64,000 nucleotides of DNA, taken from Escherichia coli. GTDB lineage: Bacteria; Pseudomonadota; Gammaproteobacteria; Enterobacterales; Enterobacteriaceae. Under the pieces are notes generated by a model. It did not search any database and was not told the DNA's origin. It saw nothing but the letters and a program-made list of their open reading frames with translations. Made by a program: the position numbers and the translations under genes. The stretch lies in NCBI RefSeq assembly GCF_048403405.1, contig NZ_CP183129.1. One strand, 5' to 3'. Below are positions 51,345-59,348 of the stretch, in pieces. Numbering within the stretch: the stretch's first letter is position 1; each line of letters starts with the position of its first letter.

Positions 51345-52363
51345 TGAGCAAGAAAAAAGGGAAAACACCGCAACCTGCGGCAAAAAAAATGACCGCCAGC
51401 GCCCCGAAAATGGAGGCATTCACCTTTGGCGAGCCGGTGCCGGTACTCGACCGCCGTGACATTCTGGATTACGTCGAGTGCATCAGTAACGGCAGATGGT
51501 ATGAGCCGCCGGTCAGCTTTACCGGTCTGGCGAAAAGCCTGCGTGCTGCCGTGCATCACAGCTCGCCGATTTACGTCAAACGCAATATTCTGGCCTCGAC
51601 ATTTATCCCGCATCCGTGGCTTTCCCAGCAGGATTTCAGCCGCTTTGTGCTGGATTTTCTGGTGTTCGGTAATGCGTTTCTGGAAAAGCGTTACAGCACC
51701 ACCGGTAAGGTCATCAGACTGGAAACCTCACCGGCAAAATATACCCGCCGTGGCGTGGAGGAGGATGTTTACTGGTGGGTGCCGTCCTTCAACGAGCCGA
51801 CAGCCTTCGCGCCCGGCTCCGTGTTTCACCTGCTGGAGCCGGATATCAATCAGGAGCTGTACGGCCTGCCGGAATATCTCAGCGCCCTTAACTCTGCCTG
51901 GCTGAATGAGTCGGCCACGCTGTTCCGCCGCAAGTATTACGAAAACGGCGCTCATGCCGGATACATCATGTATGTCACCGATGCCGTGCAGGATCGCAAC
52001 GATATCGAAATGCTTCGCGAAAACATGGTGAAGTCGAAAGGCCGCAACAACTTTAAAAACCTGTTTCTCTATGCCCCACAGGGGAAAGCCGACGGCATTA
52101 AAATTATCCCCCTCAGTGAAGTGGCGACGAAGGACGATTTTTTTAATATCAAAAAAGTCAGCGCCGCAGATCTCCTGGACGCACACCGCATCCCCTTTCA
52201 GTTGATGGGCGGTAAGCCGGAGAATGTCGGGTCACTAGGAGATATTGAAAAAGTGGCAAAGGTCTTTGTCCGCAATGAACTCACTCCATTACAGGAGAGA
52301 ATAAAGTCAATAAATGAATGGTTAGATATGGAAGTCATAAAATCCCTTGATTATAACTTATAA
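51344..52363 (+). CDS. Q: Portal (capsid vertex) protein gpQ
   Basis: 339-aa ORF MSKKKGKTPQPAAKKMTASAPKMEAFTFGEPVPVLDRRDILDYVECISNGRWYEPP... Its start overlaps the P stop. The last ~30 codons switch to AT-rich composition. Confidence 0.92.
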   Translation: MSKKKGKTPQPAAKKMTASAPKMEAFTFGEPVPVLDRRDILDYVECISNGRWYEPPVSFTGLAKSLRAAVHHSSPIYVKRNILASTFIPHPWLSQQDFSRFVLDFLVFGNAFLEKRYSTTGKVIRLETSPAKYTRRGVEEDVYWWVPSFNEPTAFAPGSVFHLLEPDINQELYGLPEYLSALNSAWLNESATLFRRKYYENGAHAGYIMYVTDAVQDRNDIEMLRENMVKSKGRNNFKNLFLYAPQGKADGIKIIPLSEVATKDDFFNIKKVSAADLLDAHRIPFQLMGGKPENVGSLGDIEKVAKVFVRNELTPLQERIKSINEWLDMEVIKSLDYNL

Positions 52364-52375
52364 GTAAATATATAA

Positions 52376-52402
52376 AGTTGGCGGAATGCAATCCCGCCAA
52401 CT
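52376..52402. terminator. Bidirectional stem-loop between convergent Q and the 2-TM gene
   Basis: agttggcgg (52376..52384) / ccgccaact (52394..52402), a 9-bp perfect stem with a 9-nt loop and A/T-rich flanks. Confidence 0.55.
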
Positions 52403-52405
52403 TAA

Positions 52406-53113
52406 CTATATATACTTCCTTTTTACTCTACTTAATTCTATCACTGATGAGGAGTGACAAAATGACAAATTAATAGTATCGATATAATCCAAAATTTGAC
52501 TCTCAACCTCAATAAAAATATTTTTGGGCCCATTACTAATCGATATACCGATTTCATCCAAAACAGCCATCATTTTTCTCTGATGAGTTTTATATTTATA
52601 GTCTTTATTTTCCTCTGTAATATGTGCATTGGCTTCCTCAATAACACATTTGATTCTAGATATTATTTCTAGATAATCTCTCGAAACAGATATATCACCG
52701 CCTTGCGCTTCAGGGAACATAACCCTATACCATCTAAAAAAATTAACTTTCTCTGGATAGATGCTACTTCTTTTAGTTAACTCAGCACTTGCAAATTCTC
52801 TAAACATCGTCAGATGACTAGTGTAATTACTATTATTATTATTTTTAACTCCAGCGTTATATGTCATCAAAGCAATCATAACACCAAAAACGGTAACAAA
52901 AGTTGTTATAAGCCATCCAAACGCCTGAAAATACATTACTATACCAGATGTTTTTTCCGCAAAAAATTTTAAGCACTGGCTATCGAAGCATATATCACGC
53001 TCATATAGCTTTTCATTCTGAATAGTTTCAAAAAGAGAAATTAGCGAAAAAATCAAAAAAAGAGCTGACGACACACCGACAATATATTTGAGAAGTCTAA
53101 TATTTGCATTCAT
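52406..53113 (-). CDS. Two-transmembrane protein translationally coupled to the RT (candidate effector)
   Basis: 235-aa ORF. TM1 is YIVGVSSALFLIFSLISLF and TM2 is IVMYFQAFGWLITTFVTVFGVMIALMTY, followed by a soluble C-terminal ~150 aa. The ATG overlaps the RT stop (ATGA at 53110..53113). AT-rich. Confidence 0.7.
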   Translation of the reverse strand: MNANIRLLKYIVGVSSALFLIFSLISLFETIQNEKLYERDICFDSQCLKFFAEKTSGIVMYFQAFGWLITTFVTVFGVMIALMTYNAGVKNNNNSNYTSHLTMFREFASAELTKRSSIYPEKVNFFRWYRVMFPEAQGGDISVSRDYLEIISRIKCVIEEANAHITEENKDYKYKTHQRKMMAVLDEIGISISNGPKNIFIEVESQILDYIDTINLSFCHSSSVIELSRVKRKYI

Positions 53114-54300
53114 AATGGTTTTAAAGATGCCAATCTAGATTTAAAACACTCCAGTTTTTCTTTAAATGATTCAGAGCGAGTAAGAATAATCATCTTATAT
53201 CTCGTCAAATCATATTTTCTTTTATACCAATGTTTATTTTGATTACCTTTCGAATACGACAACTCTAAACTTTTTATAGCTGCATCAATCACAGCAACAT
53301 CTCTTTTAGATGGCATCGGTTTTATTGCCTGCAACTGTTTCTTGAATGATTCATATTTTTCATGCCCAACACGGCCAAGCTTATTCACTCTCCCCATACA
53401 TCTATTGAATTCTTTTCTGTATGCAACACTTGTTTTTGTGTTATTTTTTGCCGCCAGTAATTTCAAATTATGTATAGATGCCCTGATTCTTTTGACTTCA
53501 TCGGATGGTAGTCGAGGTGAGTCATAGTCAACTCTTAAACCATGTACTTTTATAGGTTCAGATGAACAGTGAAATATTTTTGTTTTGTGCTTATTTATCG
53601 GCAAGTCATGCTCAGAAAGCATCCTCTCTATATGGCTTTGCATTTGAGAAAAATCATAATTACTTATTTTAGATGACACGGTAATATCATCTACCAAACG
53701 CGTATAAACAAGTCCTTTCCTCTGCGCACGTCTTACCACATCCCCTTCAACAGCGAATAAACACAAAGTTGCTATATAGCTTGATGTTAAGGCCCCCTGT
53801 ACGACAAAATCATCCTTAGTACATATATCCACCAAGTATTCAAGAGCCTCATCCTTAATATGCAATATCTCCTCAAACACGCTCCTAACCAGATCTCTAT
53901 GGATATTATCGAAAAAATTACTTATATCCACCTTGAGAACTGTTTTTGCTCCACAATGAGCCTTTGCACATGAAACATAGTCACGTTTGACATTAGAATT
54001 TAAAACATCATTTTTACTGGGAACTGAACCAAACAAAAATGAAGGAAAAACAACCAATTCCTTAAAAATACGTTTATTAATTCTACTCTGTAATAATCTC
54101 ATTTTAGGATGTAGGGAGTAGACAATCCGTTTGCTTCCGTCAATTTTGGGAATTTCTTTTAGAGTATATTTCTCATCTAATGATAATTCTGCAATAGCTT
54201 TAAGCTCTTCAACAGAAATCGATAAAGCCTTTGACAACTTTTCAAGTGTTGTGATAGGAGCATTGGATTTGCTGTATGGTTTAAATTTATCCATAAACAT
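53110..54300 (-). CDS. Retron-like reverse transcriptase
   Basis: RT motifs read from the ORF: KIDGSKRIVYSLHP (motif 1), LLQSRINKRI (2), VLKVDISNFFDNI (A), QGALTSSYIATLCL (B), YTRLVDDITVSS (C, YxDD-type), INKHKTKIF (D/E) and VHGLRV (a retron VTG-like position). The N-terminal LEKLSKALSISVEELKAIA segment is as in retron RTs. The start is ambiguous: ATG 54300 or 54294 is favoured, with ATG 54336 or TTG 54384 possible. Confidence 0.8.
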   Translation of the reverse strand: MFMDKFKPYSKSNAPITTLEKLSKALSISVEELKAIAELSLDEKYTLKEIPKIDGSKRIVYSLHPKMRLLQSRINKRIFKELVVFPSFLFGSVPSKNDVLNSNVKRDYVSCAKAHCGAKTVLKVDISNFFDNIHRDLVRSVFEEILHIKDEALEYLVDICTKDDFVVQGALTSSYIATLCLFAVEGDVVRRAQRKGLVYTRLVDDITVSSKISNYDFSQMQSHIERMLSEHDLPINKHKTKIFHCSSEPIKVHGLRVDYDSPRLPSDEVKRIRASIHNLKLLAAKNNTKTSVAYRKEFNRCMGRVNKLGRVGHEKYESFKKQLQAIKPMPSKRDVAVIDAAIKSLELSYSKGNQNKHWYKRKYDLTRYKMIILTRSESFKEKLECFKSRLASLKPL

Positions 54301-54552
54301 ACCATTCAAATTCAAAGTTACGTACGGTCTTCCCATACTCAAGGGTGGAACAGCAGAGATGCTTACATCAACAATTGTCAGCAACAGCCTCTGCTATCTT
54401 TCGACCGTACGTAATGTCGTCGGCTACGGCACCATCGTAGTTGACGACGGTGGGGCCTCGCTGATAGGTCCATAGTGGACGCTTTTTTGTAAAAGCAAAA
54501 ACTGACAATTTAATGTTGTTGACTGCCGCATACCAAGCGAATCGCTGGTGCG
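54301..54552 (-). ncRNA. Candidate structured non-coding leader (possible retron msr-msd) upstream of the RT
   Basis: About 250 nt lie between a predicted promoter and the RT ATG, with no credible ORF and dense inverted repeats. These are a 12-bp perfect IR 54318..54329/54403..54414, a compound hairpin 54416..54448 (GTCGTC-AA-CTACG-loop-CGTAG-CC-GACGAC), a 9-bp IR 54373..54381/54502..54510 and a 7-bp IR 54352..54358/54389..54395. I could not assign a1/a2 or the branching G uniquely. Confidence 0.35.
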
Positions 54553-54558
54553 CTAAGA

Positions 54559-54587
54559 ATAATGCAACAAAAAAATAAGAATTTCAA
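54559..54587 (-). promoter_or_regulatory. Candidate sigma-70 promoter for the RT leader
   Basis: The minus strand reads TTGAAA (54587..54582), a 17-nt spacer, then CATTAT (54564..54559). The predicted start is near 54552, within ...TCTTAGCGCACC. Confidence 0.35.
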
Positions 54588-54625
54588 CCGGGTAACTGCA
54601 AGCCAGCGACATCGTTTAGCGCGCA

Positions 54626-54644
54626 GTGCTTTCCCCGCCTCGCC
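54626..54644 (-). other. cos cohesive-end sequence (P2-type 19-mer)
   Basis: The plus strand gtgctttccccgcctcgcc is the exact reverse complement of GGCGAGGCGGGGAAAGCAC, the P2 cohesive end as I remember it. It sits in a GC-rich block (about 54590..54780) with repeats ccgg[a/c]acatgcaa at 54720..54732 and 54735..54747. Confidence 0.8.
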
Positions 54645-54805
54645 CGCCCGCTTCGTGGGGCGGTTTTAATGCAGGTGCAATACCGCTTTTGAGCCACGCC
54701 CGTCCTGGCGGACGCACGGCCGGAACATGCAACTCCGGCACATGCAAAACCATGCACATATTGCACGCAGAAAGATAAATGCCAAAATACCTAAATCAAC
54801 TTCCA

Positions 54806-56644
54806 TTAATCAGCCAGATAAGGTTCAACTTTATCTTCCCATACACTAAATAAAGGCAAACAAGTTAAATAAAAGATAAAGACACAGGCAAAAACTGAAG
54901 TTGGTTGATAACAATGATTTACAGTATACCTGCCATGAGCCATCGTGTGTCTAATTGCAGCACCACCTTTCATATTGAACAATAAATCCATAGTCAATAC
55001 ATGATCACTATCAAAAACACCTTCCATTTCACTCCTATAATTTGCAAGCATTTGAGATAGGCTAGTAGCCTCCTCAAAAAGCGACACATCTATTTTCGTT
55101 GTTTCTTTTCTTCTTAATTCTAAAATCCATCTAATTGAATTCTCCAATTGCGGCAATAACAAATAACAGGCAGACACATAATCTCCCTGCCAAAGCTTAT
55201 AAAACCCCAAAGAAAATATTTCTGCATACCCAGGTGGAACAAATGCACTTTGTTGTGAGATTGGGTCAAATGTATTTTCATTTAATGAATACCTAGCCAA
55301 CACACTTTGCCTAACGACTTCAAACTCACCACAAACATAGACCTGATGCTCAATGTTACTAGTTCTTAAATAATTTGCACAAGCATCATTTAAACTTATA
55401 TCCCCCGCAGGATCCAAAGGTGAACGACTTGCTACAACGCGCCCTCTATCATCATAAACAACCGTTTCACTCATATTAAGAAAAAAATGTTTTTTAGCAT
55501 CGGAACGAGCTCTTTCCATAATTTCACTGGCACTTACAATCTTAAATCTAGCAATTAAAGTTTTAATTACCCTTGAGAAATCCAATTGATTATAAACATG
55601 CTCTTTCTGAGCGATAACATCACTAAGATCCATTGGTATTGCAAAGAAGTGCATTTCATCATTGATTTGATCTCGAATAGAATTCAATTCCTCTCTAATC
55701 TTTTTAATTTCTTCATTCATTCCACCAATTGCTCTAAATTCGCCAAGAGCAACTCTTAACCAATGAGCCTTCAATATTGAAGATGAAGACTGTTCAAATT
55801 GAGCCAATGTTATTTCTGACGCTTTAATTCTGCACCGTCTTCCTTGCTCTTCCATATCGTTTTTAACATATAATTCAGACGCAAAATAAAACAATTTTTT
55901 CACTGCATCAAAATAAGACGCTCCACAATGCTCATCAGCTATCTTTTCTGCATTCTCAGCCAATTGCAAGGGACACAATAAATTATTCTTATAAAGAATT
56001 TCAGAAACTCTTAATACACCGGTGAATATACCAGAGTCTATTAATACATGATATAACCTTAATGTCGAATCAACTATCCCCCCTTGTAGTTGTTTTTTCC
56101 TGCCAATAAGCATGCGCGATATTGCGATACCTCTATCCAAGCAGTCAACAACATCAAAAATATGGATATCACCTGACTCTTGTTTTTCTATTAAAGTATC
56201 GCAAGCATCATTAACCATTAGAGAATATGACTCTATTGCTTTATTGGCAGAGTCTATATCCTTACGGTTATTTATCCATAAAACATCACACACCCTAGAT
56301 ATAATATAAGGATTATCGGAGTTTTCTTTAATACAAGTTAATATTGTTGAAAAACTCTCCTTATAATCTGAAGGCCTATAGCCCCTCTCAGGATAGAGAA
56401 TGATTTTTGGCTCAAAACCGATAATATCACCAGACCTAGAAAATTTAAAATTAAACAACGCACGTAATAAATAGCAAAGCCGCCAAGAACTTACATCGTT
56501 TTTTAGCTTGTAAGATGACAACAACTGAACAAAATAAGACTCCATATCAAAATGAGAATAACTTCTTGGCGATGATAATATACTGGCGTATTCACTTTTT
56601 TTAAAATCATCAACTGAAATAGAAAAAACATCAAACTCGCTCAT
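54806..56644 (-). CDS. 612-aa cargo protein of unknown function with C-terminal R-x4-H (HEPN-like) motif; candidate anti-phage/abortive-infection effector
   Basis: Uninterrupted AT-rich ORF with a strong SD (AAGGTGAGGA immediately upstream of ATG 56644). It is largely helical by composition. I could not find a P-loop, so it is not Old-like. The C-terminus reads YLLLPQLENSIRWILELRR...GGAAIRHTMAHGRY. It occupies the tin/old position between A and cos. Confidence 0.55.
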   Translation of the reverse strand: MSEFDVFSISVDDFKKSEYASILSSPRSYSHFDMESYFVQLLSSYKLKNDVSSWRLCYLLRALFNFKFSRSGDIIGFEPKIILYPERGYRPSDYKESFSTILTCIKENSDNPYIISRVCDVLWINNRKDIDSANKAIESYSLMVNDACDTLIEKQESGDIHIFDVVDCLDRGIAISRMLIGRKKQLQGGIVDSTLRLYHVLIDSGIFTGVLRVSEILYKNNLLCPLQLAENAEKIADEHCGASYFDAVKKLFYFASELYVKNDMEEQGRRCRIKASEITLAQFEQSSSSILKAHWLRVALGEFRAIGGMNEEIKKIREELNSIRDQINDEMHFFAIPMDLSDVIAQKEHVYNQLDFSRVIKTLIARFKIVSASEIMERARSDAKKHFFLNMSETVVYDDRGRVVASRSPLDPAGDISLNDACANYLRTSNIEHQVYVCGEFEVVRQSVLARYSLNENTFDPISQQSAFVPPGYAEIFSLGFYKLWQGDYVSACYLLLPQLENSIRWILELRRKETTKIDVSLFEEATSLSQMLANYRSEMEGVFDSDHVLTMDLLFNMKGGAAIRHTMAHGRYTVNHCYQPTSVFACVFIFYLTCLPLFSVWEDKVEPYLAD

Positions 56645-56798
56645 TCCTCACCTTTAAAGCACTTAACAAACAATCATGGTAAACAATACCAAACTGCAAG
56701 CAACGATTAAATACAGAAAACTCTTTCTGTCGAGATTTTTCAATAACACTAAATATATACAGTACGAAATTATCTAATATTGCGTGAATTTTTGCCAT
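56631..56798 (-). CDS. 55-aa hypothetical protein coupled to A and to the 612-aa gene
   Basis: ORF 56631..56834 was trimmed to ATG 56798 (MAKIHAILDNFVLYIFSVIEKSRQKEF...). This ATG overlaps the A stop (TAATG). Its 3' end overlaps the 612-aa ORF start by 14 nt. It is AT-rich. Coding status is unproven. Confidence 0.4.
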   Translation of the reverse strand: MAKIHAILDNFVLYIFSVIEKSRQKEFSVFNRCLQFGIVYHDCLLSALKVRNERV

Positions 56799-59083
56799 TA
56801 TGTCCACTCCATTACTGTTGAGAATCCCGGCCACTCATCAATGACCGGATACGTGAATTTTTTCCCGCCATAATTTATGGTCGCTCCCCGAGCCAGCGCC
56901 TCAAGCTCCCATCGCTGTGGCCTGATACCGTTCTGAGCAAGGTCAACGCGGATACGGGTAATTTGCATTCGTTCCGACCGGGTCAGTCTGGCCGATGGCG
57001 CTATTTCATGCGGTTTTAACGGGCTTCCGTTTCTTTGCTGACGGTTTGGTCTTCTCAGACCGTGTTTTAATGCACCTCTGAGCGCCCTCACGACCTCCTG
57101 GTCATTCCATTCGATAACACCGTCATCTACCAGATTAAGCACTGCTACGGCGTGTTCAGAAGGCGTGGGAGCCGGTGACGAAGTATCACCACCGGTGAGC
57201 TTTCCACAGTTATTGACAGGACTCCGAGGCGCGGCGATGCCGCTTTTTAAAGTCAACGGCTCAACGACCGGAACTTTCGGCACAATGCGCCAGTCCGTCG
57301 TTCTGGTGATATGAATATGACGCGTGCCGAGATGCGGCGCGTAAATGCCGACCACTCTCTCGACTTCTTCCTCGTACTCGTTAACGTCATCCGACGGGCT
57401 ACGGGCGACCCTGACAGTCTGACAATCGCGCGGGACATTTGCCCCGCCCTGCGCGCTGATATACAACGCAAAATCACCACTGTCTGCGGCGGCGCGTGCA
57501 GCCTCGACGCGTTCGTCAAACTCATCAGCAATGCTGACGCCGCGAGGCAATTTGCGTAGTTCACGGTAAGCCCCCATTGTCGGCAGGCCAACCGTTTTAA
57601 ATTGCGGGATACGCCACGTTGACGCCCATGCGGTAACAGCCGCTGCAGTGTCTTTCAGCGGCCTGCCGGTATCGTTATCGAGCTGACCATCCAGTGCATA
57701 GCCGTCGATATTTTTTGAGATGTATTTCGCGATATATCCCGCAGCACCGCCCCGGTTAAGGTGTTTCGCCTGAAAACGGTTTCGCGCGGCTCCTCTTTCG
57801 TCGCCATCCTCTTTGAGCGCATAGCGACGCATGATTTCGATAATCTGGTTACGCTGGCGTGGATTACAAAAAAGCATCATATGCCAGTGCGGCGTTCCGT
57901 CGTGGTGTGGCTCGACGACTCGCAAACCGTAGACCTGTAAATCATTATCCTTGAATGCCGTGCGCATCAGGCTCCAGATACGGCAGAGATAACGCTGCGC
58001 ATCCTTCGGATTAAATGCCTCATCATTCCAGCCGTGATTAAGCTGCACGGTTTTACTTTCTCCTTTTCCGACCTGACGTGTCGGGTGATACTTTGACGGC
58101 GCGGTCAGCGTGATAAACATCCCCACATCACCCTCTGCGGCGGCGTAACGCTCAATACCGGCGATGGTGTTCATCAGCTCCATCCGGCGAATTTCAGGAT
58201 TAGAAATACTGCCCATCACCTTACTGATAAGGTCGATGCGCTCGCCGGTTTCCCTGTTTTCGAGGTCACACGATTTAAGAAATTCCAGATTTGCCTGGCG
58301 GCGTGCACGCACATCACGAATGGCGTGTTTACTGGCATAAGGAGAACGATCTTTATTGACCTCCCCGACAGCAATCAGTAACGCCTCATGCCAGCGCATA
58401 CGCTGGCCTTTAAGCTGATGAGTCCACCACTCATCGTTAAACAGGCGGGCAATGGCAGAATATGCCTGCCTCGTGGTCATCTGTCCTTTACGGTATTTTT
58501 TCCAGTAGAGCGGGGAAATATTGAAAGCACGTGCAGCGCCAGCAACATGACTATACAGGTGAGCCTGCGCCTCATCCGTAAACAGCGATTCTTTTTCGCC
58601 ATGCGCATCCACCCAGGCATCGCTGAGTTCCTCATACATCATGAAAAGCTGCGATGAGATACGGGCGGCAAACTTTTTCAGCTCCTTGTCATTCATTCCA
58701 GGCAGGCGCGCATAGTGGTCACGCTCTGCCAGAAACAGCAACGACGCGTCGGTGTTCATTTCATGGCGCTGATTCACGCGCTCAATGCGCGGCCATAAAC
58801 GACGCTGAAAAGTGGATGTGAGGAAATAAAACCCGTGTACCGGGCTTTTATTGCGCCGGATGTAGTCATAGCGTGAAGTAAACAGCGAGCGCAAAAAGTA
58901 AGGCAGGCGGTTAATCGTGGATAAAACCCCTTGCACCTGACGCATCTCGTCACGTGTAAGGGGTCTTTCGCGCCCGACGGCCTCGCGTGGCGCGTTCCAT
59001 GCATAAGCACCGGTAAACGTCTTACCGGTGCCTGCGGCAAATGCTGACGGAGGGACAAAACGCCCGGAGGCTTTAACGGCCAT
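56798..59083 (-). CDS. A: Replication initiation endonuclease gpA (rolling-circle, HUH-type)
   Basis: ORF 56798..59125 was trimmed to MAVKASGRFVPPSAFAAGTGKTFTGAYAWNAPREAVGRERPL (761 aa). It contains VEPHHDGTPHWHMMLF (HUH-like) and YIAKYISKNIDGY (catalytic Tyr pair). It matches P2 A closely as I recall it. Confidence 0.93.
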   Translation of the reverse strand: MAVKASGRFVPPSAFAAGTGKTFTGAYAWNAPREAVGRERPLTRDEMRQVQGVLSTINRLPYFLRSLFTSRYDYIRRNKSPVHGFYFLTSTFQRRLWPRIERVNQRHEMNTDASLLFLAERDHYARLPGMNDKELKKFAARISSQLFMMYEELSDAWVDAHGEKESLFTDEAQAHLYSHVAGAARAFNISPLYWKKYRKGQMTTRQAYSAIARLFNDEWWTHQLKGQRMRWHEALLIAVGEVNKDRSPYASKHAIRDVRARRQANLEFLKSCDLENRETGERIDLISKVMGSISNPEIRRMELMNTIAGIERYAAAEGDVGMFITLTAPSKYHPTRQVGKGESKTVQLNHGWNDEAFNPKDAQRYLCRIWSLMRTAFKDNDLQVYGLRVVEPHHDGTPHWHMMLFCNPRQRNQIIEIMRRYALKEDGDERGAARNRFQAKHLNRGGAAGYIAKYISKNIDGYALDGQLDNDTGRPLKDTAAAVTAWASTWRIPQFKTVGLPTMGAYRELRKLPRGVSIADEFDERVEAARAAADSGDFALYISAQGGANVPRDCQTVRVARSPSDDVNEYEEEVERVVGIYAPHLGTRHIHITRTTDWRIVPKVPVVEPLTLKSGIAAPRSPVNNCGKLTGGDTSSPAPTPSEHAVAVLNLVDDGVIEWNDQEVVRALRGALKHGLRRPNRQQRNGSPLKPHEIAPSARLTRSERMQITRIRVDLAQNGIRPQRWELEALARGATINYGGKKFTYPVIDEWPGFSTVMEWT

Positions 59084-59348
59084 ATGAGCCAAAAGCCTCT
59101 GAACAACGCTTGCTGAGTTGCTCAACCTGCGCGTTTAAATCAGCAAAAGACTTTGCGCTTCCGGTCAGAATATCGTGATGCATCAGGCCGGAAACGAGCT
59201 GGCTTAATTTCGGGTAATAACCAACCACCGCCAGCCATTCCTGACCGGCGTTTTTACCGCTTTCCGCTCTCTTTTTCTCGTGGAGAATAAACTGAAAGCT
59301 GTCACTGGTAACGACATAACGTTCGCCAATTTCAATACGAATGCTCAT
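59073..59348 (-). CDS. P2 orf83-like early protein
   Basis: 91-aa ORF MSIRIEIGERYVVTSDSFQFILHEKKRAESGKNAGQEWLAVVGYYPKLSQ... Position immediately upstream of A. Confidence 0.8.
   Translation of the reverse strand: MSIRIEIGERYVVTSDSFQFILHEKKRAESGKNAGQEWLAVVGYYPKLSQLVSGLMHHDILTGSAKSFADLNAQVEQLSKRCSEAFGSYGR

What the first reader, a model, noticed from the sequence alone, without database searches (positions are those of the whole stretch)
54301..54587. About 250 nt of densely structured non-coding leader upstream of the RT: msr-msd candidate with unresolved architecture
No credible ORF lies between a plausible promoter (TTGAAA-17-CATTAT, 54587..54559, minus strand) and the RT ATG (54300). The region is packed with inverted repeats. 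(a) There is a perfect 12-bp IR: minus-strand TTACGTACGGTC (54414..54403), immediately followed by G, and GACCGTACGTAA (54329..54318), which ends 18 nt before the RT ATG. That geometry resembles retron a1/a2 with a branching G, but only 73 nt lie between the arms, which is short for msr plus msd. (b) A 33-nt compound hairpin spans 54416..54448. (c) An interrupted ~15-bp IR (54365..54381 with 54502..54523) encloses ~120 nt. (d) An imperfect palindrome lies at the predicted transcription start (54526..54556, containing TTAGCGCACC, reminiscent of the TTAGCG branch context of Ec86). Alternative foldings are mutually exclusive, so the true RNA cannot be decided by eye.
Basis: seen in the sequence. 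Interest (0 to 1): 0.6.

Follow-up and report, generated by a model that had tools for sequence, protein, structure and literature searches.

The report
Retron Ec48 msr-msd leader RNA
This stretch is the promoter and non-coding RNA of the already known E. coli retron Ec48 (Retron-Eco6) anti-phage system; comparison with 44 relatives shows the RNA is one conserved, knotted fold that runs further downstream than the published ncRNA.

Summary
The interpretation (a retron msr-msd) is right in kind but wrong in detail.

**Identity.** The locus is Retron-Eco6 (Ec48), a type IV retron.
- The RT matches PADLOC RT_IV at 8e-177.
- The effector is the exact sequence named TM48_ECOLX.
- The published Eco6 ncRNA maps to 54573..54388.
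- The published RT-DNA starts exactly at + strand 54407.

- Hairpin (b) is the msd. msDNA-Ec48 is + strand 54407..54454.
- The perfect 12-bp repeat (a) is not a1/a2: eight nucleotides of its 5' arm are themselves reverse transcribed.
- Even so, (a) is a genuine helix. It is 93% paired in 45 diverse leaders, and all 12 pairs covary.
- Repeat (c), a second long-range helix (54398-89/54358-49) and several hairpins are also conserved.

**Fold.** These helices do not share nucleotides.

**5' end.** A promoter conserved in position places the RNA 5' end near 54553-54551. The upstream "a1" implied by the published ncRNA boundary therefore lies in promoter DNA, and its pairing shows no conservation.

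**Open.** The priming (branch) nucleotide and the role of the 3' domain remain unresolved.

**Verdict.** The element is already known. The extended fold is a modest, testable addition.

The parts
54559..54587 (-). Sigma-70-type promoter: -35 TTGAAA (54587-54582), 17-nt spacer, -10 CATTAT (54564-54559). Inferred transcription start about 54553-54551.
   Evidence: Found by the scan. In 34 of 45 homologous leaders the best -35/-10 match within the 70 nt upstream ends 5-9 nt before alignment column 6, which is G54551. The start site is inferred; no RNA data were available.
54533..54548 (-). P0: 5'-terminal hairpin CCAGCG-AUU-CGCUUGG.
   Evidence: 95% of cells paired, 5 of 6 pairs with changes on both sides, and the loop-closing G-C pair invariant. 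Also recovered by RNAalifold.
54550..54552 (-). t-helix 5' strand: the first nucleotides of the RNA, which pair with 54388-54386.
   Evidence: Pair counts: col 6-260 GC31/AU6/GU4; col 7-259 CG41/UA1; col 5-261 AU12/UA9. Overall 80% paired against 70% in shuffles, 0 of 500 shuffles as high. In the window itself only two of the three pairs form.
54502..54531 (-). Three segments: c_outer 54531-54528, c_mid 54522-54518, c_inner 54510-54502. A conserved 5-nt internal-loop strand lies at 54527-54523, and a 7-nt bulge follows c_mid.
   Evidence: c_outer 95.5% paired and c_mid 95.4% paired, with every pair covarying. c_inner is 73% paired in the MAFFT columns, but a per-sequence search finds 5-11 contiguous base pairs in all 45 leaders.
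54481..54496 (-). msr hairpin HP1 (GCUUUUACAAAAAAGC).
   Evidence: 92% paired, 5 of 6 pairs covary. Recovered by RNAalifold.
54468..54480 (-). msr hairpin HP2 (GUCCACUAUGGAC), directly abutting HP1.
   Evidence: The three outer pairs are 97% paired, and the closing G54480-C54468 pair is nearly invariant.
54407..54454 (-). msd: the template for the 48-nt msDNA-Ec48. The DNA product equals the + strand 54407..54454, GTACGTAATGTCGTCGGCTACGGCACCATCGTAGTTGACGACGGTGGG.
   Evidence: The first 60 nt of the RT-DNA string for Retron-Eco6 in the retron census supplement (PMC10849725) match the + strand exactly from 54407. PMC8989520 states that the sequenced Eco6 RT-DNA agrees with the 1997 description except for being 3 nt shorter at the 3' end. 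A hairpin of 28-56 nt occupies this position in all 45 homologues.
54403..54414 (-). Helix a, 5' strand (UUACGUACGGUC). Its first 8 nt (54414-54407) are also the first 8 templated nucleotides.
   Evidence: Pairs with 54329-54318. 92.9% of cells paired, 12 of 12 pairs with changes on both sides, covariation score 0.727 against 0.302 in shuffles (0 of 500 as high), and 25-42% paired when the partner is slid by 1-3 columns.
54389..54398 (-). Helix I10, 5' strand (GAUAGCAGAG).
   Evidence: Pairs with 54358-54349. 84% paired, 8 pairs covary, and the top pair G54389-C54358 is nearly invariant. RNAalifold recovers it with a better register in its lower part.
54386..54388 (-). t-helix 3' strand (GCU), immediately 3' of the I10 5' strand.
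   Evidence: Together with P0, c_outer and I10 it gives an inferred four-way junction.
54359..54381 (-). Helix c, 3' strand: c_inner 54381-54373, c_mid 54372-54368, internal-loop strand 54367-54363, c_outer 54362-54359. It lies inside the apical loop of I10, which makes the fold a pseudoknot.
   Evidence: This segment lies outside the published Eco6 ncRNA, which ends at 54388.
54349..54358 (-). Helix I10, 3' strand (CUCUGCUGUU).
54332..54345 (-). HPx: short hairpin CCC-UUGAGUAU-GGG with invariant C54343, U54342 and U54335, and nearly invariant A54336 and G54334.
   Evidence: 97% paired; invariant columns listed. The AUG at 54336-54334 lies in all three reading frames relative to the RT across homologues.
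54318..54329 (-). Helix a, 3' strand (GACCGUACGUAA), 23 nt upstream of the RT start codon at 54294.
53110..54294 (-). Retron Ec48 reverse transcriptase, 394 aa. Some gene callers start at AUG 54336 and give 408 aa.
   Evidence: PADLOC RT_IV 8.4e-177; Pfam RVT_1. RefSeq WP_000357146.1 starts at 54294. The catalytic residues D202/D203 correspond to D216/D217 in the 408-aa numbering used for Ec48 in 10.1101/2020.06.21.156273. It carries VHG instead of VTG and lacks the Asn of NAXXH, as stated for RT-Eco6 in PMC6868368.
52406..53113 (-). Retron Ec48 effector with two transmembrane helices, 235 aa. It overlaps the RT stop by 4 nt.
   Evidence: PADLOC 2TM_IV 4.1e-85. The exact sequence carries the name 'Retron Ec48 transmembrane protein', TM48_ECOLX.

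Best explanation
The interval holds the promoter and non-coding leader of Retron-Eco6 (Ec48). This is a type IV retron carried between the cos site and the portal gene of a P2-like prophage.

**Transcript.** One transcript starts near 54553-54551 (inferred) and continues into the RT and two-transmembrane effector genes.

**Fold of the first ~235 nt**
- A 5' hairpin (P0).
- A three-segment closing helix c. By position it is the a1/a2-like stem.
- Two msr hairpins (HP1, HP2).
- The msd hairpin.
- A 3' domain, in which helix a, helix I10 and hairpin HPx meet at a three-way junction.
- The 3' strand of helix c sits in the apical loop of I10, which makes a pseudoknot.
- The extreme 5' end pairs next to I10, giving an inferred four-way junction.

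**What the literature shows for this exact sequence**
- The RT copies 54407 to 54454 into the 48-nt msDNA.
- RNase H1 sets the length of that DNA.
- RT activity and the effector are both needed for abortive-infection defence.
- Defence is triggered when phage proteins such as lambda Gam or T7 gp5.9 inhibit RecBCD.

**Shown here.** The identity of the locus, the mapping of the msDNA onto the window, and the conserved fold.

**Inferred only.** The transcription start, the junction geometry and any role of the 3' domain. My working inference is that helix a holds the initiation site in a defined structure. If so, copying its first 8 nt followed by RNase H digestion would dissolve helix a and cut the msr-msDNA part away from the mRNA. 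Which nucleotide primes DNA synthesis is not resolved.
For: **Identity**
- RT_IV at 8.4e-177 and 2TM_IV at 4.1e-85.
- 100% DNA identity to E. coli loci annotated 'retron Ec48 family effector membrane protein'.
- The effector is the exact TM48_ECOLX sequence.
- The census ncRNA for Retron-Eco6 aligns to 54573..54388, and the RT-DNA starts exactly at 54407.
- The RT carries the Ec48-specific motif deviations and residue numbering.

**Fold**
- The alignment is sequence-only (MAFFT), 45 non-redundant leaders with RT identity 41-78%.
- 82.3% of cells are paired against 66.4% in shuffles, 62 of 71 pairs change on both sides, and 0 of 500 shuffles reach any of the five measures. Sliding the partners by 1-3 columns gives 36-44% paired.
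- Helix a alone: 92.9% paired, 12 of 12 pairs covary.
- Helix c: 83.8% paired, 18 of 18 pairs covary.
- t-helix.
- RNAalifold independently recovers P0, HP1, helix a, I10 and HPx.

**5' end.** The promoter is conserved in position.

**Function.** Taken from 10.1101/2020.06.21.156273, PMC8989520 and 10.1101/2025.10.22.683967.
Against: - No RNA-level data were available here, so the transcription start, the 3' end of the functional ncRNA and the co-existence of the helices are inferred.
- A straight helix c of about 23 layers cannot co-exist with I10 given the 4-7 nt connector. Either helix c bends at its 7-nt bulge or the helices form at different times. This is my own geometric reasoning and was not modelled.
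- The template start is not next to any helix end that carries a conserved unpaired G, so the canonical priming geometry is not visible.
- I could not read the original 1997 description (Mao et al.), which reports the branch residue.
- Editing at 0.2x the Eco1 level was reported with a construct (pAGD150) listed under the published ncRNA, which ends at 54388. I assume that ncRNA is what the vector carries. If so, the 3' domain may not be strictly required for some cDNA synthesis.
Confidence: 0.85

Rival explanations
1. The 12-bp repeat (a) is the a1/a2 stem, G54402 is the branching G, and the msd lies in the 73 nt between the arms.
For: - The repeat is perfect, is followed by G, and is strongly conserved as a helix.
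- An unpaired G occurs within 1-3 nt after the 5' arm in most homologues (alignment).
Against: - On this model cDNA would start at the complement of A54330 (TTCCCATAC...).
- The published Eco6 RT-DNA starts GTACGTAATGTCG, at 54407 on the + strand, and covers hairpin (b), which lies outside the two arms.
Confidence: 0.03
2. The canonical model implied by the published ncRNA boundaries. Here a1 = 54573-54554, the branching G = G54553 (in the TTA-G context typical of retrons), a2 = 54405-54388, and the downstream 3' domain is not part of the retron RNA.
For: - The census ncRNA runs exactly 54573..54388.
- In that register G54553 faces G54406 and the next template base is C54407, the same geometry as in Ec86 (geometry recalled from my own knowledge of Ec86).
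- The census paper reports that the branching G is often preceded by TTA.
Against: - The pairing is weak, about 10 pairs with many G-U pairs and mismatches.
- It is not conserved. In the 10 closest relatives 56.8% of cells pair against 56.2% in shuffles, with 240 of 500 shuffles at least as high.
- The a1 segment contains the -10 hexamer, and the positionally conserved promoter puts the RNA 5' end at about 54553-54551.
- The a2 segment instead covaries with 54358-54349, as helix I10.
- That these boundaries represent a1/a2 is my inference from the ncRNA ends; no paper I could read states it.
Confidence: 0.15
3. The segment downstream of the msd (54406-54301) is an ordinary cis-regulatory 5' UTR of the RT-effector mRNA. 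It would act as a processing site, stability element or translational control element and play no part in reverse transcription.
For: - The segment lies between the msd and the RT start.
- PMC6868368 states that the RT-encoding transcript is cleaved from the msr-msd.
- A 12-14 bp helix could be a nuclease target (inference).
- Some editing activity was obtained with a construct listed under an ncRNA truncated at 54388.
Against: - The segment is physically interlocked with the msr-msd. Helix c 3' strand and the t-helix partner lie in it, and helix a includes the first 8 templated nucleotides.
- The Shine-Dalgarno sequences of homologues lie about 10-15 nt downstream of helix a rather than inside it (sequences read).
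Confidence: 0.25
4. The leader is translated, either as an N-terminal extension of the RT from TTG 54384 or AUG 54336, or as a small upstream ORF.
For: - The frame is open from 54384 into the RT in this window.
- Some gene callers start at AUG 54336, giving 408 aa.
- That AUG is nearly invariant.
Against: - Across 41 homologous loci the AUG lies in frame 0, 1 or 2 relative to the RT in 12, 15 and 14 cases.
- In 28 of the 41 an in-frame stop separates it from the RT N-terminus.
- The intervening sequence covaries as RNA helix a.
- No Shine-Dalgarno sequence precedes the AUG (read from the sequence).
Confidence: 0.04

Closest known systems
Retron-Eco6 (Ec48), type IV retron (RT clade 3) of Escherichia coli
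   Same: - The proteins are identical or near-identical.
- The published ncRNA maps to the window with three single-base differences in the PDF-derived text, and the first 60 nt of the RT-DNA match exactly.
- Same gene order, ncRNA then RT then two-transmembrane effector, with overlapping stop and start.
- P2-like prophage context.
   Different: - Nothing separates this locus from Ec48 itself.
- What differs is the description. The published ncRNA (54573-54388) begins 20 nt upstream of the inferred RNA 5' end.
- It also stops before three conserved strands: helix c 3' strand, I10 3' strand and helix a 3' strand.
Canonical retron msr-msd ncRNA (e.g. Retron-Eco1/Ec86)
   Same: - It lies upstream of a retron RT.
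- It has short msr hairpins followed by a stable msd hairpin that is reverse transcribed.
- A long-range closing helix (c) brackets msr plus msd.
- The first templated base is C followed by G, and RNase H1 trims the product.
   Different: - The template start lies 25 nt upstream of the closing helix and inside another conserved helix (a), whose partner strand lies downstream.
- No conserved unpaired G sits at the end of a stem next to the template start.
- An extra 5' hairpin and a pseudoknotted 3' domain are present.
- No Rfam family matches.
Type VI retron hybrid RNA (hyRNA) of Retron-Vpa2 (10.1101/2025.10.22.683967)
   Same: - Same RT clade 3.
- The msr-msd is continuous with downstream coding RNA.
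- Long-range inverted repeats tie the msr-msd arm to downstream sequence.
   Different: - Type VI encodes a small toxic peptide and an HTH protein and keeps msDNA repressed until triggered. Here the downstream genes are the RT and a two-transmembrane effector, no small peptide is conserved, and Ec48 msDNA is readily detected.
- No sequence or structure homology to the hyRNA was tested.
Retron-Sen1 (Se72), type V retron
   Same: - Same RT clade 3.
- Reviews describe it as lacking an apparent priming guanosine, and a self-priming initiation has been published for it (PMC6868368).
   Different: - PMC6868368 counts Ec48 among the 15 retrons with a priming guanosine.
- I found no evidence here either for or against 3'-OH self-priming in Ec48.

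Membership tests
Type IV retron (Retron-Eco6/Ec48 family) | RT belonging to the type IV / clade 3 retron RT group | tested here: met
   PADLOC RT_IV 8.4e-177 over 8-395 of 396 aa, against RT_V at 1.9e-63 as the next best hit.
Type IV retron (Retron-Eco6/Ec48 family) | Effector with two transmembrane helices encoded immediately downstream of, or overlapping, the RT gene | tested here: met
   PADLOC 2TM_IV 4.1e-85. The exact sequence is named Retron Ec48 transmembrane protein. The effector start overlaps the RT stop. Homologous loci carry Pfam Retron_Ec48_antiviral in the same position.
Type IV retron (Retron-Eco6/Ec48 family) | Produces the 48-nt msDNA-Ec48 from the upstream ncRNA | not testable with these tools
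   The published RT-DNA for Retron-Eco6 is identical to + strand 54407 onward. Production by this particular strain cannot be measured here.
Canonical retron msr-msd ncRNA | Inverted repeats a1/a2 that close the msr-msd, with the template starting directly 5' of a2 | tested here: not met
   Helix c closes msr plus msd and covaries, but its 3' strand begins 25 nt downstream of the template start at 54407. The weak upstream a1 in register with the start is not conserved.
Canonical retron msr-msd ncRNA | Conserved unpaired branching G immediately after a1 | tested here: inconclusive
   - A G lies within 3 nt of the end of the helix c 5' strand in nearly all of the 45 leaders read, usually paired.
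- G54553 sits in a TTA-G context, but only in the window and one relative.
- No invariant unpaired G is adjacent to the template start.
Canonical retron msr-msd ncRNA | One to three short msr hairpins followed by a stable msd hairpin | tested here: met
   HP1 and HP2 covary. A hairpin of 28-56 nt occupies the msd position in all 45 leaders.
Type VI retron hyRNA | Small toxic peptide ORF embedded in the structured RNA, plus an HTH accessory protein | tested here: not met
   No conserved ORF in the leader: the frame of the only conserved AUG varies and stops intervene. The downstream genes are the RT and the two-transmembrane effector.

The most novel reading that the evidence does not exclude
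Type IV retron RNA may not be a free-standing ~185-nt msr-msd. It may instead be a ~235-nt pseudoknotted leader, continuous with the RT-effector mRNA.

- In this fold the msDNA initiation site is buried in a conserved helix formed with the RT 5' UTR.
- Priming would then be non-canonical. Either the primer nucleotide is positioned by tertiary structure rather than by an adjacent a1/a2 stem, or the helix a partner strand itself supplies the primer.
- Reverse transcription followed by RNase H digestion would dismantle helix a and separate msr-msDNA from the mRNA. That would couple msDNA synthesis to RT and effector expression, as described for the sister type VI hyRNA.
- It would also explain why clade 3 retrons rarely made RT-DNA from predicted ncRNAs in the retron census.
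Probability: 0.2. Interest if true: 0.6.

Novelty: already known. Interest (0 to 1): 0.35.

Why it matters
**The element itself is ordinary.** It is the well-studied Ec48 retron in its usual P2-prophage location.

**What is useful is the comparative fold.**
- It shows that the ncRNA boundaries currently used for Retron-Eco6 omit three conserved pairing strands.
- Those boundaries also include promoter DNA upstream of the inferred RNA 5' end.
- The msDNA start lies inside a conserved helix rather than beside an a1/a2 stem.

**Why that could matter.**
- It gives retron engineers a concrete construct to test: extend the ncRNA to about 54318 and start it at about 54553.
- It offers a testable reason for the poor RT-DNA yields of clade 3 retrons.
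- It raises the question of how type IV retrons prime DNA synthesis.

Tried and rejected
- **Rfam.** A scan of 52000-56000 at E <= 1 gave no family.
- **Original description.** Mao et al. 1997 (PMC179752) and the Se72 self-priming paper (PMC11114809) are not held. The branch residue reported in 1997 therefore could not be checked.
- **Sequence strings in papers.** A full-text search for the ncRNA sequence found nothing. The supplements of PMC8989520, PMC6868368, PMC7736814 and PMC8563936 hold no Ec48 ncRNA sequence as text. Only the census supplement did.
- **Solved structures.** No structure of an Ec48-type RT exists; the best match is the Ec86 RT at 4e-16.
- **P0 extension.** It is 68% paired with almost no double changes, and it is not compensated where columns 28-29 change, whereas c_outer is.
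- **Upstream a1/a2.** Rejected as a conserved feature.
- **G54325 as branch point.** This is the nucleotide opposite the first template base in helix a. Rejected because the position is not conserved: it is A in L051, L055 and the Pseudomonas-type leaders.
- **G54388 as branch point.** This is the conserved G after the I10 5' strand. Rejected because it would predict a cDNA starting ATGCTTAC. It is better explained by pairing with C54550.
- **Internal-loop pairing.** GCAG (54526-23) with CUGU (54387-84) is rejected, since variation at the third position is not compensated (read).
- **Not attempted.** A covariance model of the whole leader, because it cannot hold the pseudoknot and was likely too long to calibrate, and any 3-D modelling.
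Full report
**1. Observation**

- The perfect 12-nt inverted repeat is 54318-54329 / 54403-54414.
- The hairpin is 54416-54448.
- The interrupted repeat is 54368-54381 / 54502-54522.
- The promoter-like TTGAAA-17-CATTAT lies at 54587..54559.

As RNA, the 260-nt leader folds 4.4 standard deviations better than dinucleotide shuffles, and 0 of 200 shuffles fold as well. Two small corrections apply. RefSeq and the homologues support ATG 54294 as the RT start rather than 54300. Mechanical ORFs do overlap the region.

**2. Identity**

- The downstream ORF (53110-54294, minus strand) matches the PADLOC type IV retron RT model at 8.4e-177. The next ORF (52406-53113) matches 2TM_IV at 4.1e-85.
- The 2.4-kb cassette is 100% identical to loci in five complete E. 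coli genomes. At least 80% of it is covered in 56 genomes. It is annotated 'retron Ec48 family effector membrane protein'.
- The effector is the exact sequence named Retron Ec48 transmembrane protein, TM48_ECOLX.
- The RT has the deviations that PMC6868368 lists for RT-Eco6: VHG in place of VTG, and no Asn in NAXXH.
- Its catalytic D202/D203 equal D216/D217 of the 408-aa numbering used for Ec48 in 10.1101/2020.06.21.156273.

The locus is therefore Retron-Eco6 (Ec48) itself.

It sits in a P2-like prophage, in this order:
- replication protein A (56798-59125);
- a PDC-S39/DUF7380 gene (54806-56644);
- the 19-nt sequence GGCGAGGCGGGGAAAGCAC at 54626-54644, which I recognise from memory as the P2 cohesive end;
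- the retron;
- the portal and terminase genes.

**3. Where the msDNA comes from**

The retron census supplement (PMC10849725) prints an ncRNA and an RT-DNA for Retron-Eco6.
- Aligned to the window, the ncRNA is 54573..54388 on the minus strand.
- The first 60 nt of the RT-DNA equal the + strand from 54407 exactly.
- PMC8989520 states that the sequenced Eco6 RT-DNA agrees with the 1997 description, except that it is 3 nt shorter at the 3' end.

msDNA-Ec48 is therefore + strand 54407-54454, or 54407-54451 by sequencing.

Eight of the 12 nucleotides of its 5' arm (54414-54407) are themselves copied into DNA, and the msd lies outside the two arms.

**4. Comparative structure**

I collected 48 loci from one-genome-per-species contigs (RT identity 41-57%) and six closer ones (57-78%). 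I then aligned 45 non-redundant leaders with MAFFT, using sequence only (A2).

On the structure I wrote for the window:
- 82.3% of cells pair, against 66.4% in shuffles.
- 62 of 71 pairs change on both sides.
- No shuffle out of 500 reaches any of the five measures.
- Sliding the partners by 1-3 columns drops pairing to 36-44%.

| Helix | Coordinates | Cells paired |
|---|---|---|
| P0 | 54548-54533 | 95% |
| HP1 | 54496-54481 | 92% |
| HP2 | 54480-54468 | 97% (three outer pairs) |
| I10 | 54398-89 / 54358-49 | 84% |
| HPx | 54345-32 | 97% |
| c_outer | 54531-28 / 54362-59 | 95.5% |
| c_mid | 54522-18 / 54372-68 | 95% |
| c_inner | 54510-02 / 54381-73 | 73% in MAFFT columns |

A per-sequence search finds 5-11 contiguous base pairs for c_inner in all 45 leaders. 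RNAalifold, which knows nothing of my model, returns P0, HP1, helix a, I10 and HPx. The msd position holds a 28-56-nt hairpin in every homologue.

The 3' strand of helix c lies inside the apical loop of I10, and helix a spans both. The conserved helices therefore cross one another as a pseudoknot; they do not compete for nucleotides.

The first nucleotides of the RNA (54552-54550) pair with 54388-54386. The G-C pair is replaced by A-U in six lineages, and no shuffle out of 500 does as well. With P0, c_outer and I10 this gives a four-way junction by strand connectivity. That junction is an inference.

**5. The 5' end and the published a1**

In 34 of 45 leaders the best -35/-10 match within the 70 nt upstream ends 5-9 nt before alignment column 6, which is G54551. 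The spacer sequences differ freely among close relatives while the hexamers stay in place. I therefore infer a start at about 54553-54551.

The published ncRNA begins at 54573. Its first 20 nt include the -10 hexamer. If those ends were chosen as a1/a2, the weak pairing 54571-54557 with 54402-54388 does put G54553 opposite G54406, which is the Ec86-like register. That reading of the boundaries is my inference.

This pairing has no support in the ten closest relatives: 56.8% paired against 56.2% in shuffles. The same 3' nucleotides covary with 54358-54349 instead.

**6. Not coding**

The nearly invariant AUG in HPx (54336-54334) is where some gene callers start the RT, giving 408 aa. Across 41 loci it lies in frames 0, 1 and 2 relative to the RT in 12, 15 and 14 cases. 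In 28 of them an in-frame stop intervenes.

**7. What stays unresolved**

- No invariant unpaired G sits beside the template start.
- Candidate primers are G54553/G54551 at the RNA 5' end and the G at the end of the helix c 5' strand. The latter is G54502, and it reads UUAG in several enterobacterial relatives.
- Less conventionally, the strand opposite the start in helix a could prime. Its sequence after C54326, GUACGUAA, is the RNA version of the first eight DNA nucleotides.
- I rejected G54325 and G54388 as branch points (see the tried-and-rejected list).
- I could not read the 1997 paper that reports the branch.
- The census authors themselves note that clade 3 retrons make almost no RT-DNA from predicted ncRNAs, and they suggest the ncRNA may be noncanonical.

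**8. Mechanism**

Shown in the literature for this sequence:
- The RT makes the 48-nt msDNA, and RNase H1 defines its length.
- RT catalysis and the transmembrane effector are both required for defence.
- Defence is abortive infection, triggered when lambda Gam or T7 gp5.9 inhibit RecBCD.

Shown here: the RNA that carries the template is a single conserved fold reaching to 23 nt before the RT start codon.

Inferred: helix a fixes the initiation site. Copying it and digesting the template would break the only covalent link between the msr-msDNA part and the mRNA, and would dissolve helix a. Helices c and t could still hold the two pieces together.

**9. Verdict**

The extended pseudoknotted fold and the conflict with the published ncRNA boundaries are the only potentially new points. 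They rest on covariation alone.

Noticed in passing
window 54626-54644 (minus strand): An exact copy of GGCGAGGCGGGGAAAGCAC, which I recall as the 19-nt P2 cohesive end. P2-family phage records match this flank at their record ends. The retron cassette therefore lies between cos and the 3' end of the portal gene. PMC6868368 describes the same kind of site for Ec86 and Ec67.
   Followed up: partly
window 54806-56644 (minus strand): A 612-aa protein matching PADLOC candidate defence family PDC-S39 (2e-68) and Pfam DUF7380. It lies between the P2 replication gene A and cos, so it is a second defence-type cargo gene on the other side of cos from the retron.
   Followed up: no
window 54334-54336 (minus strand): A nearly invariant AUG inside the conserved hairpin HPx, with invariant C54343, U54342 and U54335 around it. 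It is not a conserved start codon, because its frame varies and no Shine-Dalgarno sequence precedes it. The reason for its conservation is unknown.
   Followed up: partly
window 54424-54425 (minus strand): An invariant AG within the msd template (CU... GUAGC in RNA, CTAC in the msDNA) in all 45 leaders, although the rest of the msd varies freely. It may be a recognition element in the RNA or in the msDNA.
   Followed up: no
window 54523-54527 with 54363-54367 (minus strand): A conserved 5x5 internal loop in helix c, with nearly invariant C54525, A54524 and A54364. It may contain tandem sheared G-A pairs, which would make it a candidate protein-binding motif. This is inference only.
   Followed up: no
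window 54400-54430 and 54313-54330; L050, L052, L053, L054: In four relatives with only 66-78% RT identity, two blocks are 100% identical to the window: GCCGTAGCCGACGACATTACGTACGGTCGAA and AGACCGTACGTAACTTTG. Their other helices covary. This suggests sequence-level constraint on the 5' half of the msDNA.
   Followed up: no
window 54430-54451 (minus strand): An alternative 8-bp hairpin, CACCGUCG / CGAUGGUG, competes with the outer stem of hairpin (b). It is the preferred fold in the closest relatives, with a G-U to A-U change. The same alternative would exist in the msDNA.
   Followed up: no
L051 and L055 (Providencia, Morganella): Type IV retrons here sit next to Ogr/Delta, a DUF927 primase and an integrase. 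That resembles a P4-like satellite context rather than a P2 prophage.
   Followed up: no
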